From the IMG/VR virus record IMGVR_UViG_3300020045_005287, positions 1 through 24,414 of that record: a stretch of 24,414 bases of DNA, one strand, 5' to 3'. How positions within the stretch are numbered: the stretch's first letter is position 1; each line of letters starts with the position of its first letter. Position numbers and translations under genes: made by a program. The notes beneath the pieces were generated by a model. It did no database searches. It was not told where the DNA came from and saw only the letters and a program-made list of their open reading frames with translations. Source of the stretch: a virus (taxonomy: Duplodnaviria; Caudoviricetes). Below, piece by piece: positions 2,413-19,730 of this stretch.

Positions 2413-3744
2413 ATGAGCGAACAAAATGAGCAGTTAAATTTATCATTGCCGTATGAGGATTTTACTGGAAAAATGGGAAGCCAGGCTTATGCAAAAGCTA
2501 CTTACAAAAGAGGGAATGACGTAATGATTTTCCAAATACCATTTAAGGATATTCTTATTTGGGAAGGGTATAATGCCCGTACAGTATTTGAAAATATTGA
2601 GGATTTAGCAGACAGCATTCACCAACATAAACAAAAAACGCCATTTCAGCTTGTGCTTGTAAAAGAAGGTGATCGGGCTTATTTGAAAAAAGGTGGCCGT
2701 AGGCATCGTGCATACCAGTTGCTCATAGAACAGGGTTTGTTTAATCCAAATGACACTGTTCCATTTGAATTAACCAGCACCAAAGAAACGATGGAAGAAA
2801 TGATTTTGGATTTGCACGTATCGAATCAATATCCTGAGCCATTGAAGCCAATTGATCTTGCCACTGTTGCATGGAGATTAAAGCATCTTTGCGGCGCTGA
2901 AAAATCAAATGAAGAAGTATCTGAATTGCTTGGAGCAAAAAAAGTATCCCGGCAGACAGTTGATAATCTTCTCCTGATATATAATGCAAGTGATGATATT
3001 AAAAATCAAATTCGTGTAGGCGATATGAATATGACCAGTGCGGTATCGTTCATTCGTTCACAAAAAAAGTTAAAAAAAGAAGCGGATAAAAAAGAAGAAG
3101 AAGCAGGGCAATCATCCATGTATGTCCAGCCTGATCCTAAAGACAGTTTAAGGGATGAAGTAGCCGAATTAGAGGCGGCTGAGTTACAGGCAGAGATTTA
3201 TAGGGAGAGAGAGGCCAATAGGAGCAGAATTGAAGCAGAACGGTTAGAAAGAATTGCTAACTATCTTGAAGTTAAAGAAGATGTGCTTTTACAGCATATT
3301 GGCAAAAGGCTTGCGGCAGACGCTACATATAATTGGGTGGAAGATTTTGTAGATGAAGATACCGCAGAAGTGTTTCCGGTAAACAGGACAAATACCGTTC
3401 TTAAACAAGGGGAATTATTGGATGAAAACACAATCAAGGATCTTGTTGGAAGTAATGTAGAAAAGGTTTATGTATTCAAGGAAATCATTCCTACGGCATC
3501 AGTTTTTACGGAACCAGTAGCGGATCCGGAATCTCCAAAATTCGATGTGTCAAGACCAGAAATAGAAAAGATTCAAAAATGTATTCAAGGTGCTGACAAG
3601 GTAGAAGCCATTGTAACAAAGTTGGATGCTCCTGATGACGTAAAAAAAGATATTGCTTTTCAAATATACTGGCTCCAACGAAATCTTTCGGATGTGCGTG
3701 ATTGGGTACATTCCAATAAAAAACAAAATAAAAAAGACCGATAA
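2413..3744 (+). CDS. ParB/Srx-like N-terminal domain protein with HTH, coiled coil and RpoB-insert-like domain
   Basis: YNAR...IEDLADSI...P...GGRRHRA matches the ParB N-domain. NEEVSELLGAKKVSRQTVDNLL is an HTH. WVEDFVDEDTAEV resembles the Bacteroidota RpoB insert. Confidence 0.8.
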   Translation: MSEQNEQLNLSLPYEDFTGKMGSQAYAKATYKRGNDVMIFQIPFKDILIWEGYNARTVFENIEDLADSIHQHKQKTPFQLVLVKEGDRAYLKKGGRRHRAYQLLIEQGLFNPNDTVPFELTSTKETMEEMILDLHVSNQYPEPLKPIDLATVAWRLKHLCGAEKSNEEVSELLGAKKVSRQTVDNLLLIYNASDDIKNQIRVGDMNMTSAVSFIRSQKKLKKEADKKEEEAGQSSMYVQPDPKDSLRDEVAELEAAELQAEIYREREANRSRIEAERLERIANYLEVKEDVLLQHIGKRLAADATYNWVEDFVDEDTAEVFPVNRTNTVLKQGELLDENTIKDLVGSNVEKVYVFKEIIPTASVFTEPVADPESPKFDVSRPEIEKIQKCIQGADKVEAIVTKLDAPDDVKKDIAFQIYWLQRNLSDVRDWVHSNKKQNKKDR

Positions 3745-4180
3745 TGCCCAGACCAAAAGCTATAGATATTGAAATAATTTATCAAGGCGTTTTAAATAAG
3801 GAATTAACCATAAATTCAAAGGGTGAGATATGGCGTATTGGAATACGTTGGAGAAATAGTTCTGGGCAAAAAGGAGTGAAAAAATGCAAAAAAAAGAGAG
3901 CAGAGCATGATACCGGGGATTATCTTCAAATATCGGCATCATATAATGGGGTAGTATATTCCACATGCGCCCATAGGTTAGTTTTCTACCATTTAATAAG
4001 CATCTACCTATGGATATGACAGTCAACCATGAAAATGGCAATAAAAAGGATAATAGGCCTAAAAACCTAACATTGATGTCAGATTCGCAGCAGCATGTAC
4101 ATAGGGTTAGGGTTTTGAAAAATGGGCTAAAAAATTCAATAAAGTTTATTCTGAAAATAACAACGGATATTTTGCAATAG
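3744..4180 (+). pseudogene. HNH endonuclease, frameshifted at about 3992 and probably 3'-truncated
   Basis: The first frame gives GDYLQI...AHRLVFYH. The -1 frame continues FNKHLPMDMTVNHENGNKKDNRPKNL...QQHVH, the HNH core. Confidence 0.8.
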
Positions 4181-5439
4181 CATTCTTATGCGCGAGCCTT
4201 TTTGCTGATTTTATTTATTCCATTCACAGCTGGTTTCCAATGATGAATTCTTATGGAATGCCAAGAACTGGAAAAACAACAATCGCTAGATCAACAGCTA
4301 GAGTGATTTCTTCAACAGCAATGGAGTTTTCCCTTCACGGTGGTACGCCAATCGGTTTGCAACGGCTTTTAGCGCAAAAAAGAAATACAATTGAACTGGC
4401 TGATGAGTTCAGAAATGACTTGGATATGAAAACAATCCAAACATTGAAAAGAGTTTATGACCGTTCCAAAATCCCAAAAGGGCAAATGACGAACGATAAT
4501 AGAACGATTGACACTCCTGTTAATTCGGTTTTGTGGTTCATGGGGCAACACATGTGCACGGTTGATTCAGGAGCATTGCTCACACGTTGTATTTCACGTG
4601 AGTTCATGAAAACAATGGATAAATATACCAATGATGAAATTTTAGAGTATGAAGAGCTGCGCGAGTGGGAAAAAAAAGGTTTATCGGATGTTGTAATCGA
4701 AATAATACGCTCAAGATCATCCATTGAACAAAATTACCTTCATGAATTTACAGAAATTGGTGATAAAATACGTGATGAGTTAAGAGATACAGGAGCAGAT
4801 GGGCGTGTAGTTGGAAATCATATCGTTTTCTTGGCCGTGGTGAAGATTTTAAGCGATAAGTTAAGCTTTCCATTCACCTATGAAGAATTTTATGAAGAAA
4901 TCAAGAAATCCATACAACAGCAATCGCTTACAATTTCCAGCAATGATGATTTAGCTGATTTATTCCAAATGATGGAATTTTTAGCAATGCAACATGCCAT
5001 CAAAATCAATGAAGATTACAAGCTTGAAAAAAGAAAACTTCATATCACCATCGGGCGTGGCGAAACTGAGGAGAAAAAAACGCTTGAATGTGTTGATGTT
5101 CTTTATATCAAAATGACTAGGATTTATCCAATGTATGCTGAACACACGCGCAAACAAGGAAATGATCCTTTGCCTCAATCAACTTTGATTTCCTATTTCA
5201 AAAATCATAGGTCATTTATTGGACCAGTAAAAGGAACCAAGTTTAATGGTGTAAATACATCGGCATTTGCTTTTGATTACAACATTTTGGATATAAGATT
5301 ACCAGGATTAAATGACGAAGTGAAACCTGAAGAAGAAACGCCTGCTCCATACATTCCAAAATCACCACAAATGGAGCAATCAGTTTTGGATTTGGAAACA
5401 TGGCCAGCAGAAAAAGACGATGATGATTTACCATTTTAA
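4111..5439 (+). pseudogene. 5'-truncated phage primase/helicase (C-terminal P-loop helicase portion only)
   Basis: The frame opens after TAG at 4108-4110 with no start codon until 4240. It reads FEKWAKKFNKVY...ASLFADFI...FP, then Walker A GMPRTGKT, Walker B LADEF and VYDR. No primase or zinc-finger domain lies upstream. Confidence 0.7.
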
Positions 5440-5451
5440 AAACAGAAAACA

Positions 5452-5745
5452 ATGAAATTAACAGAATCCCAACAACAAGAATATTTAGATGAATTGGTGC
5501 GCACTTTATGCAAAATGCAATCAACCATCCATAGCATTGATAAATTATCAGATCAAGCGCTATTCTACAAAAACCATAAGCAAAAGCTATTGAACATGGA
5601 GAATTCACTTTCAACAATTTTGAACGAAACAACGATATTTTTCGGGTTCAAAACAACCGATTCGTTCTGTTTAGCCGTCAAAAGTATCGATGATGTGGCT
5701 GGTGAAATTACTTATAGAGAAGAAAGTTCTGAGAATGGAAAGTGA
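5452..5745 (+). CDS. Hypothetical phage protein
   Basis: 97-aa ORF filling the gap between the helicase and the MTase; A-rich leader. Confidence 0.75.
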   Translation: MKLTESQQQEYLDELVRTLCKMQSTIHSIDKLSDQALFYKNHKQKLLNMENSLSTILNETTIFFGFKTTDSFCLAVKSIDDVAGEITYREESSENGK

Positions 5746-7132
5746 TATCGTATTACTAGAATTATTTAGTGGAATTGGTGGTTTCGCTAAAGGTTTGGAA
5801 GATGGTGGTTTTAAAATAAACACTCATTATTTTTCAGAAATAGATAAACATGCAATTGCAAATTATAAATACAATTTTAAAAACTCAAAATATGTTGGAT
5901 CAGTTGTCGATGTTCGAGGAAGAAGCCTTGAACGACCAAATATTATCACTTTCGGAAGCCCTTGCCAAGATTTCTCAGTGGCTGGAAAAGGAAAAGGGAT
6001 GGACGGAGAAAGAAGTTCTCTTATCCTCGAAGCAATTCGCCTGGTTGACGAGTGCCGACCAGACGTTTTTATCTGGGAAAATGTTAAAGGAGCTTTCTCC
6101 TCAAATGATGGCGCAGACTTTTGGGCAATTATCAAAGCCTTTACCAACATTGGGGGTTATCGACTTGAATGGCAATTGTGTAACACAAGTTGGTTTTTAC
6201 CCCAAAATAGAGAGCGGATATACCTTGTCGGACATCTTGCAGGAAGAAGTGAACTCGGAGTATTTCCTTTCACAAAAAATGGTGGATTATTTAATGGTTC
6301 GAAAGGATCAGAAACAAGACAATCACAAACCCAAAATAGTACAACACTATCCGCAGGAACAGCTCCTGGAATGAAAGCGAGTGATACGTTTGTTGAAGTT
6401 CAAAAAATTGCAGGATGTTTAACTGGAGGTGGACATAGTGGTGGCTTGCATAGTGATATGACTACTATTAAAGTAAAACCAGTTCAATTAGGTAAATCAG
6501 ATAATTATTCAGAAACATCAAATTTAATTGGAGATAATAATCAAGATGCATTTTGTTTAAGAGCTACTCAATCTAATGGAGTAATGGTAAATTCCAACAC
6601 CAAAAAAGGCTTTGATATTGCCAATGAAGGTGATTCCATAAATCTTTCCAATCCGAATTCCGAGACGAGACGTGGACGTGTAGGTGTAGGTGTAGCACAA
6701 ACATTAGACACCCAATGTAATCAAGCCGTTGTAAAATCGGTAGCAACTCCAGATAGAAAAGAAAAAAAACAGAATGGCAGCAGATTTAAAGAAAATGAAT
6801 CATTTACGCTTTGTTCTCAAGATCAACACGGAGTTCAAATAAATGATTCAGTTCGTAGATTAACAGAAATCGAATGCGAACGCTTGCAAGGATTTCCGGA
6901 TGATTGGACCAAGTTTGGATTTTACTTAAAACCAAGTGTGCAAAAGTACATTTATGGTAGTAAAAAAAGATGGCGAACAGCAAAAGCATTGCACAATTTA
7001 TTTGTTTTTGCCGTAAACAACACCACTTTGATTGAAAAGGAAATTGGAAAAACAAATCGTTACAAAATGTGTGGAAATGCCGTAACCACGGATTTACCCA
7101 GAGAAATAGCCAAACGATTAAAAATAACCTGA
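5735..7132 (+). CDS. DNA (cytosine-5)-methyltransferase
   Basis: Motifs I ELFSGIGG, IV GSPCQDFS, VI WENVKG, VIII QNRERIY, IX RRLTEIECERLQGFPD and X GNAV. ATG at 5735 is preferred. Confidence 0.95.
   Translation: MESDIVLLELFSGIGGFAKGLEDGGFKINTHYFSEIDKHAIANYKYNFKNSKYVGSVVDVRGRSLERPNIITFGSPCQDFSVAGKGKGMDGERSSLILEAIRLVDECRPDVFIWENVKGAFSSNDGADFWAIIKAFTNIGGYRLEWQLCNTSWFLPQNRERIYLVGHLAGRSELGVFPFTKNGGLFNGSKGSETRQSQTQNSTTLSAGTAPGMKASDTFVEVQKIAGCLTGGGHSGGLHSDMTTIKVKPVQLGKSDNYSETSNLIGDNNQDAFCLRATQSNGVMVNSNTKKGFDIANEGDSINLSNPNSETRRGRVGVGVAQTLDTQCNQAVVKSVATPDRKEKKQNGSRFKENESFTLCSQDQHGVQINDSVRRLTEIECERLQGFPDDWTKFGFYLKPSVQKYIYGSKKRWRTAKALHNLFVFAVNNTTLIEKEIGKTNRYKMCGNAVTTDLPREIAKRLKIT
5892..6374 (+). CDS. 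Overlapping alternative-frame ORF inside the MTase (M.EcoHK31I beta-polypeptide-like)
   Basis: Stop-free frame of about 160 codons in AT-rich DNA, containing TLSDILQEEVNSEYFLSQK; begins MLDQLSMF. Confidence 0.55.
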   Translation: MLDQLSMFEEEALNDQILSLSEALAKISQWLEKEKGWTEKEVLLSSKQFAWLTSADQTFLSGKMLKELSPQMMAQTFGQLSKPLPTLGVIDLNGNCVTQVGFYPKIESGYTLSDILQEEVNSEYFLSQKMVDYLMVRKDQKQDNHKPKIVQHYPQEQLLE

Positions 7133-7429: not shown

Positions 7430-8542
7430 ATGAAAATCACATTAAGCAGCGGGGAATTATCGAAGAAACTCAATTTTTTGGGAGGTGTAATCGCACCCAA
7501 CAACACAATGCCAATTCTGGACAATTTCCTTTTTGATATTGAAAACAAACAATTGAAAATAACATCATCAGATCTCGAAACCACGATGTCCACCACGATG
7601 GACGTGGATTTTGAGGGCAAAGCAACCGTGGCGATACCGGCCAGACTTTTGATAGAGATTTTGAAAACATTCTCTGAACAACCTTTGGTTTTCACGATTC
7701 AGGAAAACAACACCATCGAAATCAGTTCGAATACAGGACAATATGAAATTGCTTATTTCCTTGGTGAAGAATATCCAAAATCCATCGTGTTGAAAAATCC
7801 ATCATCCACGCTTATACCGTCCAAAATATTAGCCAATGCGATTGGAAAAACGCTTTTTGCCACAAACAACGACGATTTGAGACCGGCAATGAACGGTGTT
7901 TATTTTCAGCTATCGACTGAAAGCATCATTTTTACGGCCACCGATGCACACAAGTTGGTTAAATATTCCAGAACGGACGTGAAAGCCACTGAAGAATCCA
8001 GCTTCATTATGCCAAAGAAACCTTTGGGTGTTTTGAAAGGCATATTAAGCACCTTGGATGAAGAAGTGAAAATTGAATTCAATGAGTCGAATGCGGTGTT
8101 TTCTTTTGGAAATTACATCATTTCGTGCCGCTTGATTGATGCCAAATATCCCAATTATGAGGCGGTTATCCCAAAAGACAATCCAAGCAAATTGATCATC
8201 GACAGAACTTCTTTTTTACAATCTGTAAAGCGTGTGGCAACTTTTTCGAACAAAACCACGCACCAAATCCTTTTGAAAGTGGCGGGAACGGAACTGAACA
8301 TTTTTGCTGAAGATGTGGACTATTCCAACAAAGCCGATGAACGCCTGACCTGTAATTTTCAGGGTGAAGATATCAAGATAGGTTTCAATTCCCGTTTCCT
8401 GTCTGAAATGCTGGGCGTTTTTCAGTGCAACACGATTGAAATGGAATTGTCATCGCCAATGCGTGCCGGAATCCTGAAAGCCGTGGACGGTCTGGAAGAA
8501 GGCGAAGAAATCCTGATGCTGGTAATGCCGGTAAAAATATAA
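7430..8542 (+). CDS. dnaN: DNA polymerase III beta subunit (sliding clamp), phage-borne copy
   Basis: 370 aa with PILDNFLF, SDLETTM, DDLRPAMNGV, ATDAHKL, RLIDAKYPNYEAVIP, IGFNSRFL and terminal LVMPV. Confidence 0.97.
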   Translation: MKITLSSGELSKKLNFLGGVIAPNNTMPILDNFLFDIENKQLKITSSDLETTMSTTMDVDFEGKATVAIPARLLIEILKTFSEQPLVFTIQENNTIEISSNTGQYEIAYFLGEEYPKSIVLKNPSSTLIPSKILANAIGKTLFATNNDDLRPAMNGVYFQLSTESIIFTATDAHKLVKYSRTDVKATEESSFIMPKKPLGVLKGILSTLDEEVKIEFNESNAVFSFGNYIISCRLIDAKYPNYEAVIPKDNPSKLIIDRTSFLQSVKRVATFSNKTTHQILLKVAGTELNIFAEDVDYSNKADERLTCNFQGEDIKIGFNSRFLSEMLGVFQCNTIEMELSSPMRAGILKAVDGLEEGEEILMLVMPVKI

Positions 8543-18185: not shown

Positions 18186-19730
18186 ATGGAAAAGTCATTA
18201 TTCCCTGCGTGGGTGGATAAATATTTCAAAATGTTTACCCAAAAGATTGTAGAAAAACTAAACGGATCCACAAATCCGCTTACGTATCTTCACAGAACGA
18301 TGTTGAAAAAAGAATATTCTCCCACACTTCGTTGGGGTTCTTTGTCAACTTCAAATACTGTTGTTTCTGCTGATGTAGTTGCAATGGATTCAAGTTTACC
18401 ATTGAAAAAAAGAGATTCCATCAAGAAAGCCGATGGTGAAATTCCTAAAATAGGTATGAAACTAGCCTTGAACGAAACTACTATGAATGAGTTAAACATT
18501 CTATTAGCTGTTGGAGGTCAAGATTCAGAAGTTTTAAGAAAACTTTTCGCCGATACTAACAAGGTAGTTTCAGGGGTTTGGGAAAGATTGGAATTTATGT
18601 TTCATCAAGCATTGTCGACAGGTTATATATTGGTTGCCGATGATGACAATCCAGGTCTTGGAGTCCGTGTAAATTTCAATCATTCAGATGATAATAAATT
18701 TGGAGTTGAGATTAAATGGTCTGAATCGGGAGCTAAATGTATCGATGATATCGACAGGGTTATTGAAGCTGCAAGACCATCTGGAAATACAATCAAGTAC
18801 ATCTTGATGGATAAAGCCACTTGGAACAAATTCAAACAAAATCAGCAAGTGAGAGAAGGTTACGCTTTTTATCGTGATTTCGTTGGCTCAAACATTCCAC
18901 CAGTACAATCAGTTGAAAAAGCAAATGAATTTTTGCAAGCTTCTTATGGAGTTACAATTACTATTGTTGATCGTCACGTTTTAGTTGAGAAAAACGGTAC
19001 TCAAAAATCAATCAAACCTTGGGCAGATAATGCCGTGGTATTCTTGACTGACTTAAACGTGGGTACATTGACTTATGGTAGATTAGCTGAAGAAACTTTT
19101 CCAAGCAAAAATGTTGATTACCAAAAACTAGATGATTTCATCTTGGTATCTAAATACCATTTGAATGATCCAATTAAAGAGTTGACATCTTCTCAAGCTA
19201 TTGTATTACCAGTTCTAAACAACATCGACAGTATATACATAATGGATTGTGAGGAATCGCAAACAGAATCAGGTCAAACTGAAGATGATGCAACTATCAC
19301 CATATATGCTGATTCAACTGTTACAATCGCAAATCTTGTAAATGCATTGAATGAAGTTGGAGTTACTGCAAGTTCCGAAATGACAGATGTTCAGTTAATC
19401 AAGTTGGTTAACAAATTAAGCAAAGCCAAAGAAGCTACCTTGAAAGAAATTCTTGAAATTCCTGTTGTTGATGCTGGTGCAAACACAACTTCAAGTGCTG
19501 CAACTAAAGCGTTGTTAGGAACTGCAACAGCTGCCGGAGATAAAGAAATTGAATCAGTTCTTTGGACTCAAGTTTCTGGACCAAACACGGCTGCATTTAG
19601 TGCCGCAACAGCATTGAGCACAAATGCTACAGGTTTAGTTACCGGTGTTTACGTGTTCAAATTGACTGCAACGGATTCTGAAGGTACAGTGGCATCTGAC
19701 ACAATCACAATCACAGCAACTGTAGCATAA
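18186..19730 (+). CDS. Major capsid protein (lambda gpE-like) with C-terminal helical linker and PKD/Ig-like domain
   Basis: ADVVAMDSSLPLKKR...GEIPKIGMK, ERLEFMFHQALSTG and PVL..IDSIY. The C-terminus PVVDAG...WTQVSGP...GVYVFKLTATDSEG is PKD-like. Confidence 0.88.
   Translation: MEKSLFPAWVDKYFKMFTQKIVEKLNGSTNPLTYLHRTMLKKEYSPTLRWGSLSTSNTVVSADVVAMDSSLPLKKRDSIKKADGEIPKIGMKLALNETTMNELNILLAVGGQDSEVLRKLFADTNKVVSGVWERLEFMFHQALSTGYILVADDDNPGLGVRVNFNHSDDNKFGVEIKWSESGAKCIDDIDRVIEAARPSGNTIKYILMDKATWNKFKQNQQVREGYAFYRDFVGSNIPPVQSVEKANEFLQASYGVTITIVDRHVLVEKNGTQKSIKPWADNAVVFLTDLNVGTLTYGRLAEETFPSKNVDYQKLDDFILVSKYHLNDPIKELTSSQAIVLPVLNNIDSIYIMDCEESQTESGQTEDDATITIYADSTVTIANLVNALNEVGVTASSEMTDVQLIKLVNKLSKAKEATLKEILEIPVVDAGANTTSSAATKALLGTATAAGDKEIESVLWTQVSGPNTAAFSAATALSTNATGLVTGVYVFKLTATDSEGTVASDTITITATVA

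What the first reader, a model, noticed from the sequence alone, without database searches (positions are those of the whole stretch)
3283..3483. ParB-like protein carries a domain resembling a Bacteroidota RNA polymerase beta-subunit insert
Seen: VLLQHIGKRLAADATYNWVEDFVDEDTAEVFPVNRTNTVLKQGELLDENTIKDLVGSNVEKVYVFKE. From memory of Bacteroidota RpoB, the lobe insert reads roughly IGRKLAARVL.TW.EDFVDEDTGEVVSIERNE.I..R.T.L....I..I....VK.I.L.KE, which aligns along the whole length. Inference: a ParB/CTPase-like and HTH protein displaying an RNAP surface mimic could decoy or recruit host factors that bind this RNAP domain, linking DNA clamping to transcription control or anti-defence.
Basis: partly seen in the sequence, partly recalled or inferred. 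Interest (0 to 1): 0.72.

Follow-up and report, generated by a model that had tools for sequence, protein, structure and literature searches.

The report
Phage ParB carrying RNA-polymerase surface domain
A bacterial virus carries a copy of a surface domain of bacterial RNA polymerase inside a ParB-type protein, and the best-kept part of the copy is a loop that docks the repair helicase UvrD/PcrA in other bacteria, so the protein likely brings that helicase onto viral DNA (untested).

Summary
Confirmed. Residues 282-357 of a 443-aa phage ParB-like protein (2413-3744) are a complete copy of the Bacteroidota RpoB beta-lobe insert (Si1/beta-i4, BEAN fold): E 9e-8 for the single sequence, 2e-22 for a profile, rmsd 1.9 A to 9N9Q. 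The insert is present in 61 of 73 family members and is exchanged as a module.

Its hairpin tip corresponds to the published PcrA/UvrD 'helicase interaction motif'. The glutamate that is essential in Bacillus is kept in 55 of 61 copies, while the hairpin stems evolve fast and several RpoB-invariant residues are lost. Best reading (0.35, inferred): a DNA-bound ParB dimer displays this loop and recruits host UvrD/PcrA.

Against this: the window's copy reads TAE, not TGE; only 2 of 61 copies fit the strict motif; 12 members lack the domain; host-lineage UvrB lacks the glutamate (4 of 4). No complex could be modelled.

The same domain sits in about 12 other non-RpoB scaffolds, including a second ParB lineage. 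This scan had already noted it twice in other phage proteins. I found no paper on phage copies. New variant; interest 0.6.

The parts
2413..3744 (+). Gene for a 443-aa ParB-like protein in a Bacteroidota-type tailed phage (early/replication region)
   Evidence: 73 family members
2524..2832 (+). ParB N-terminal (CTPase-fold) domain, aa 38-140, with the GxRR box at aa 94-97 (window 2692-2703)
   Evidence: phrog_1033 E 5.9e-21; GxRR in 72 of 73 members, one GxQR; Foldseek hits Noc/ParB/KorB
2833..3111 (+). ParB-type helix-turn-helix region, aa 141-233
   Evidence: HTH_ParB in 54 of 61 members at E<=0.01; only E 0.03 for the window's own protein; helices in the model
3112..3255 (+). Linker and long helix (aa 234-281) that carries the insert; travels with the insert in recombination
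3256..3483 (+). Complete copy of the Bacteroidota RpoB beta-lobe insert (Si1/beta-i4; BEAN domain), aa 282-357
3349..3375 (+). Hairpin tip VDEDTAEVF (aa 313-321), equivalent to the helicase interaction motif; E319 kept, Gly replaced by Ala in this copy
3544..3732 (+). Conserved C-terminal two-helix domain (aa 378-440); dimerisation role inferred by analogy with ParB, no family match

Best explanation
The protein is a phage ParB-family protein whose linker holds a domain homologous to the host RNA polymerase beta-lobe insert, and it likely uses that domain's hairpin tip to bind the C-terminal Tudor domain of the host helicase UvrD/PcrA and hold the helicase on phage DNA. Shown: the homology, the predicted fold, the intact ParB box, the modular presence or absence of the insert, and preferential conservation of the tip glutamate. 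Inferred: that the gene was taken from rpoB, CTP-dependent clamping and dimerisation, binding to UvrD/PcrA in Bacteroidota, and a benefit such as clearing R-loops, stalled RNA polymerase or recombination intermediates during phage replication.
Against: The window's own copy reads T-A-E-V-F and departs from the published consensus at two positions. Only 2 of 61 copies match the strict motif and only 19 of 61 have the exact TGE triad. 12 of 73 members lack the domain, 9 of them without any such motif, and 2 more (P0058, P0064) keep the domain but have lost most of the hairpin. The insert as a whole evolves no slower than the linker (1.26 against 1.24). UvrB from the host group has Lys where Bacillus UvrB has the essential Glu in 4 of 4 examined, so the motif-Tudor code is not clearly conserved in this phylum. 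Gly and Asp at a beta-turn can be kept for folding alone. The tip window and the relaxed patterns were chosen after I had seen the alignment.
Confidence: 0.35

Rival explanations
1. The domain docks a different factor that normally binds the RNA polymerase beta-lobe insert (a TraR/DksA-type or an unknown Bacteroidota regulator, or a defence sensor). The ParB clamp would then recruit or divert that factor to modulate transcription, in the manner of KorB-type clamps.
For: [quoted passage not shown] The whole domain, not only the hairpin, is kept in 59 of 61 insert-bearing members. Host-group UvrB lacks the motif glutamate.
Against: Conservation is concentrated on the exact residue that PcrA needs in Bacillus. 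Most other RpoB-invariant surface residues are lost. No such partner is identified in Bacteroidota.
Confidence: 0.22
2. The insert is a tolerated passenger: a small, stable, mobile BEAN domain that serves as a spacer in the ParB linker and binds nothing.
For: BEAN domains are inserted in many unrelated proteins with no assigned function (PMC11515920). The insert's absence is scattered over the scaffold tree: 9 changes, at least 6 forced. Its overall rate equals the linker's. The slowest sites are mostly near the start and end of the domain and include likely core positions.
Against: The exposed tip of a long hairpin is conserved while its stems are not. The motif survives without the domain in 3 members and in 3 other phage proteins. 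The same domain is fused to about 12 other scaffolds.
Confidence: 0.2
3. The domain binds UvrD/PcrA as a decoy. It would titrate the helicase away from RNA polymerase and so blunt repair or anti-phage helicase activity, rather than use the helicase on phage DNA.
For: UvrB and RNA polymerase compete for the PcrA Tudor domain (PMC8318588). The module is also fused to proteins with no evident DNA-binding role (DUF4494, LRR_5, phrog_35807).
Against: Here the module rides on a DNA-binding ParB scaffold with an intact box. It is also fused to a DnaN-like domain (P0210) and to a second ParB lineage (P0183), which suits localisation better than sequestration.
Confidence: 0.17

Closest known systems
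RpoB beta-lobe insert Si1 / beta-i4 = type 4 BEAN domain (CATH 3.90.105.10; PMC11515920), Bacteroidota form in PDB 9N9P/9N9Q and 8DKC
   Same: Sequence homology over the whole domain (41% to the nearest RpoB, up to 54% for relatives), the same predicted fold (rmsd 1.9 A), the same hairpin.
   Different: Here it lies in the linker of a phage ParB, not in RNA polymerase. It is optional and faster-evolving, and several RpoB-invariant residues are lost. The BEAN paper lists RNAP, uL10, MoeA, OKR decarboxylases, a ferredoxin and one unknown protein; the words 'phage' and 'ParB' do not occur in its main text.
PcrA/UvrD helicase interaction motif (PMC8318588; PDB 7EGS)
   Same: Acidic beta-hairpin tip with D-x-x-T-G/A-E; the essential Glu is kept.
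   Different: The window's copy has Ala for Gly and Phe at the last position. The motif was tested in Bacillus, not in Bacteroidota or in phages ('phage' and 'Bacteroid' have 0 occurrences in that paper's main text).
ParB/Noc/KorB CTPase clamps; PHROG 1033 ParB-like phage proteins
   Same: ParB N domain with GxRR box, followed by an HTH and a C-terminal helical domain.
   Different: Extra 76-aa RpoB-like domain in the linker. No ParA found in 3 incomplete virus records and no parS found.
PHROG 35807 and DUF4494-fused phage proteins of unknown function
   Same: They carry the same RpoB-like domain.
   Different: Unrelated scaffolds, with the domain at the N- or C-terminus.

Membership tests
BEAN domain (RNAP-beta type 4 / Si1) | Full-domain sequence similarity to RNAP-beta BEAN inserts | tested here: met
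   E 2.3e-22 over 74 of 74 positions; 71 of 151 genomes matched, every listed match in an RpoB-length frame except a truncated RpoB and one family member
BEAN domain (RNAP-beta type 4 / Si1) | BEAN fold | tested here: met
BEAN domain (RNAP-beta type 4 / Si1) | TGD/E motif of RNAP-beta BEANs | tested here: inconclusive
   Window TAE; family TGE 19, SGE 11, NGE 10 of 61
Helicase interaction motif | Strict pattern [VIL]-D-x-x-T-G-E-[VIL]-[VILT] | tested here: not met
   The window's copy fails at two positions; 2 of 61 members match
Helicase interaction motif | Essential glutamate at the tip of an exposed beta-hairpin | tested here: met
   E319 in 55 of 61; strands 304-313 and 320-330 in the model
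Helicase interaction motif | Binds the PcrA/UvrD C-terminal Tudor domain | not tested
ParB CTPase clamp | ParB N domain with GxRR box | tested here: met
ParB CTPase clamp | HTH DNA-binding domain after the N domain | tested here: met
ParB CTPase clamp | CTP binding/hydrolysis and sliding on DNA | not testable with these tools
   biochemistry needed
ParABS partition system | Cognate ParA and parS site | tested here: inconclusive
   No AAA_31 match in 3 records that are 47, 28 and 74% complete; no parS-like site found in the window

The most novel reading that the evidence does not exclude
Bacteroidota phages repeatedly capture the RNA polymerase Si1 domain as a portable 'UvrD handle'. Fused to ParB clamps (two lineages), a DnaN-like domain and about ten other scaffolds, it would load the host helicase onto phage DNA through the same site that RNA polymerase uses: a general, undescribed form of host-helicase hijacking by RNAP mimicry.
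Probability: 0.3. Interest if true: 0.85.

Novelty: new variant of a known kind. Interest (0 to 1): 0.6.

Why it matters
Si1 is a lineage-specific part of RNA polymerase with few known partners, and I found none tested in Bacteroidota. Phage copies that keep some of its residues and drop others point to the surface that matters outside the polymerase, and they give soluble reagents for finding the partner. If the partner is UvrD/PcrA, this is a new route by which phages redirect a host repair helicase, and a ParB clamp that loads a helicase. It also shows that BEAN domains, described in PMC11515920 as ancient insertions that tapered off early in evolution, occur as exchangeable modules in present-day phage proteins.

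Tried and rejected
Artefact or chance: rejected; 61 relatives from several sources carry the insert in frame.

One versus several captures: unresolved. With 61 ParB inserts, 31 RpoB and 3 phrog_35807 rows, the ParB inserts form one side of a branch (100/99). With 24 of the 61, 22 RpoB and 24 other carriers this is not recovered (4 changes, bootstrap unsettled), and an AU test does not reject grouping P0183 with the family (p 0.13). The direction of transfer (rpoB to phage) rests on distribution, not on a rooted tree.

Sequencing runs: no RNA holder listed; three runs held 6-12% of the words, and none covered the whole insert. Pfam has no model for the insert. The C-terminal domain gave no usable Atlas or PHROG hit. 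Integrase and ParA were not found in three incomplete records. Phage record MT836236.1, a tblastn hit, holds rpoB itself in what looks like a host operon and was dropped. G101:C32 is a truncated RpoB. A single-protein scan of viral contigs found no relative.

Ten paper searches showed no report of a phage copy of this domain. The library lacks most subscription papers, and I did not read any supplements; the tables of PMC11515920 could list further BEAN carriers.

Full report
Setting. The window is a 24.4-kb virus record, estimated 47% complete. It has a terminase small subunit, an SPP1-type portal, a major capsid protein, a C5 methylase and a DnaN clamp. The finding lies in ORF 2413-3744 (443 aa, P0001), residues 291-357. 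Two relatives were found on short contigs of MAGs named Chitinophagales and Parafilimonas, which is a weak pointer to the host group.

Family. A search with P0001 scored 8,000 candidates and returned 73 proteins. 61 of 73 carry the insert and 12 (348-379 aa) do not. GxRR is present in 72 of 73. On a tree built without the linker and insert, absence needs 9 changes, at least 6 forced by strong branches (shuffled mean 11.4). Many insert-less members share a similar short linker, so exchange of two alleles is as likely as repeated loss. P0001 is itself a mosaic: residues 1-215 are 85-95% identical to P0005, which is only 30% identical in the insert, whereas residues 216-357 are 76-88% identical to P0003 and P0004. 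Neighbours of relatives include HNH nucleases, a DnaB helicase, sugar epimerases and glycosyltransferases (24 chosen ORFs from 7 loci).

What the insert may do. PMC8318588 (abstract, section 7 and passages read) shows that the PcrA Tudor domain binds a hairpin in Si1 with consensus [VIL]-D-x-x-T-G-E-[VIL]-[VILT], and that the Glu is needed. I took this lead from an earlier scan note and tested it. The 31 host RpoB inserts, which were the top scorers and so a biased set, fit the motif nearly perfectly. In the phage copies the Glu is kept in 55 of 61. Its site rate is 0.32, the tip averages 0.96, and both stems exceed 2.1. RpoB-near-invariant residues are retained at 0.67 in the tip and 0.42 elsewhere (p 0.02; columns are not independent and the window was chosen after inspection). 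A core pattern [DN]xx[TS]GE occurs in 28 of 61 (1.24 expected) and in 3 of 12 insert-less members (0.29 expected; two are sisters). The partner domain is present in 57 of 61 genomes of the host order. The lysine that corresponds to PcrA K727, judged from the paper's primer context, is invariant in 27 of 27 aligned; of 31 loci, 2 did not parse and 2 near-duplicates were left out.

Against. The window's copy is T-A-E-V-F. The strict motif fits only 2 of 61 and exact TGE 19 of 61. Two members keep the domain but have lost most of the hairpin. The insert's mean rate (1.26) equals the linker's (1.24). All 4 host-group UvrB proteins examined have Lys in place of the Glu (a fifth was split across contigs and not read). 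Si1 has at least one other known partner, TraR (PMC6970531, passages), and KorB shows that ParB-type clamps can regulate transcription (PMC11790492, passages). That ParB linkers lie between the HTH and a dimerising C-terminal domain of a clamp is recalled knowledge.

Wider distribution. The profile found 663 proteins at E<=0.001 among 1.84 billion; the best 150 were examined. By their flanks, 62 are RpoB, 18 ParB-like, 2 phrog_35807 and 68 unassigned. Reading those 68 by eye, I took 23 as non-RpoB carriers and set aside 45 as short RpoB-like fragments, chimeras, one unclear 96-aa protein or one low-complexity hit. The 26 carriers outside this family fall into 12 clusters, two of them doubtful: DUF4494 fusions (9), an LRR_5-containing group (6), phrog_35807, phrog_26490, phrog_9513, a DnaN-central-domain fusion (P0210) and a distant ParB with the domain at its C-terminus (P0183). 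They have Glu (18) or Asp (8) at the motif position, though they were selected by the profile and have no genomic context. Hairpin-only copies occur in Flavobacterium phage FPSV-D35 QCW20773.1 and in two viral contigs. The number of independent captures is unresolved.

Novelty and verdict. The parts are known; the fusion was not found in ten paper searches of the held library. Two earlier notes of this scan describe the same domain in other phage proteins; none was found for the ParB fusion. The homology is secure and the function is inferred: recruitment of UvrD/PcrA 0.35, another Si1 partner 0.22, passenger 0.20, UvrD decoy 0.17. New variant of a known kind, interest 0.6.

Noticed in passing
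window 3744-5439: The ORF at 3744-4019 looks like an HNH endonuclease (recognised by eye, no library match) whose HNH-like motif continues in another frame to about 4180. The next ORF (4240-5439, P-loop, open from about 4120) looks like the C-terminal part of a primase/helicase with no N-terminal part: a deletion or an assembly join. No contig bridged the region.
   Followed up: partly
window 5850-6374 (+): A 174-aa ORF in another frame inside the C5 methylase gene (5690-7132). It recalls two-polypeptide methylases with an overlapping subunit such as M.EcoHK31I (recalled, untested).
   Followed up: no
window 7430-8542: Full three-domain DnaN sliding clamp encoded by the phage.
   Followed up: no
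window 18186-19730: Major capsid protein with a C-terminal PKD-like domain.
   Followed up: no
window about 3333-3362 against L033: A 30-base exact DNA match between the hairpin codons and one of 31 host rpoB genes; rpoB-like contigs also laid here. It may follow from amino-acid identity alone, or from recombination with rpoB.
   Followed up: partly
L002, L003, L006, L007, L010: Relatives of this ParB often lie upstream of nucleotide-sugar epimerase and glycosyltransferase genes.
   Followed up: no
P0210, P0183, P0191: The same RpoB-like domain fused to a DnaN central domain, to a distant ParB (C-terminal) and to an LRR_5 protein.
   Followed up: partly
L050:3635-6484: A 949-aa acidic protein of a 90-kb virus contig carries only the hairpin.
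   Followed up: no
L046 (MT836236.1): A record deposited as a bacteriophage holds rpoB itself in what looks like a host operon.
   Followed up: yes
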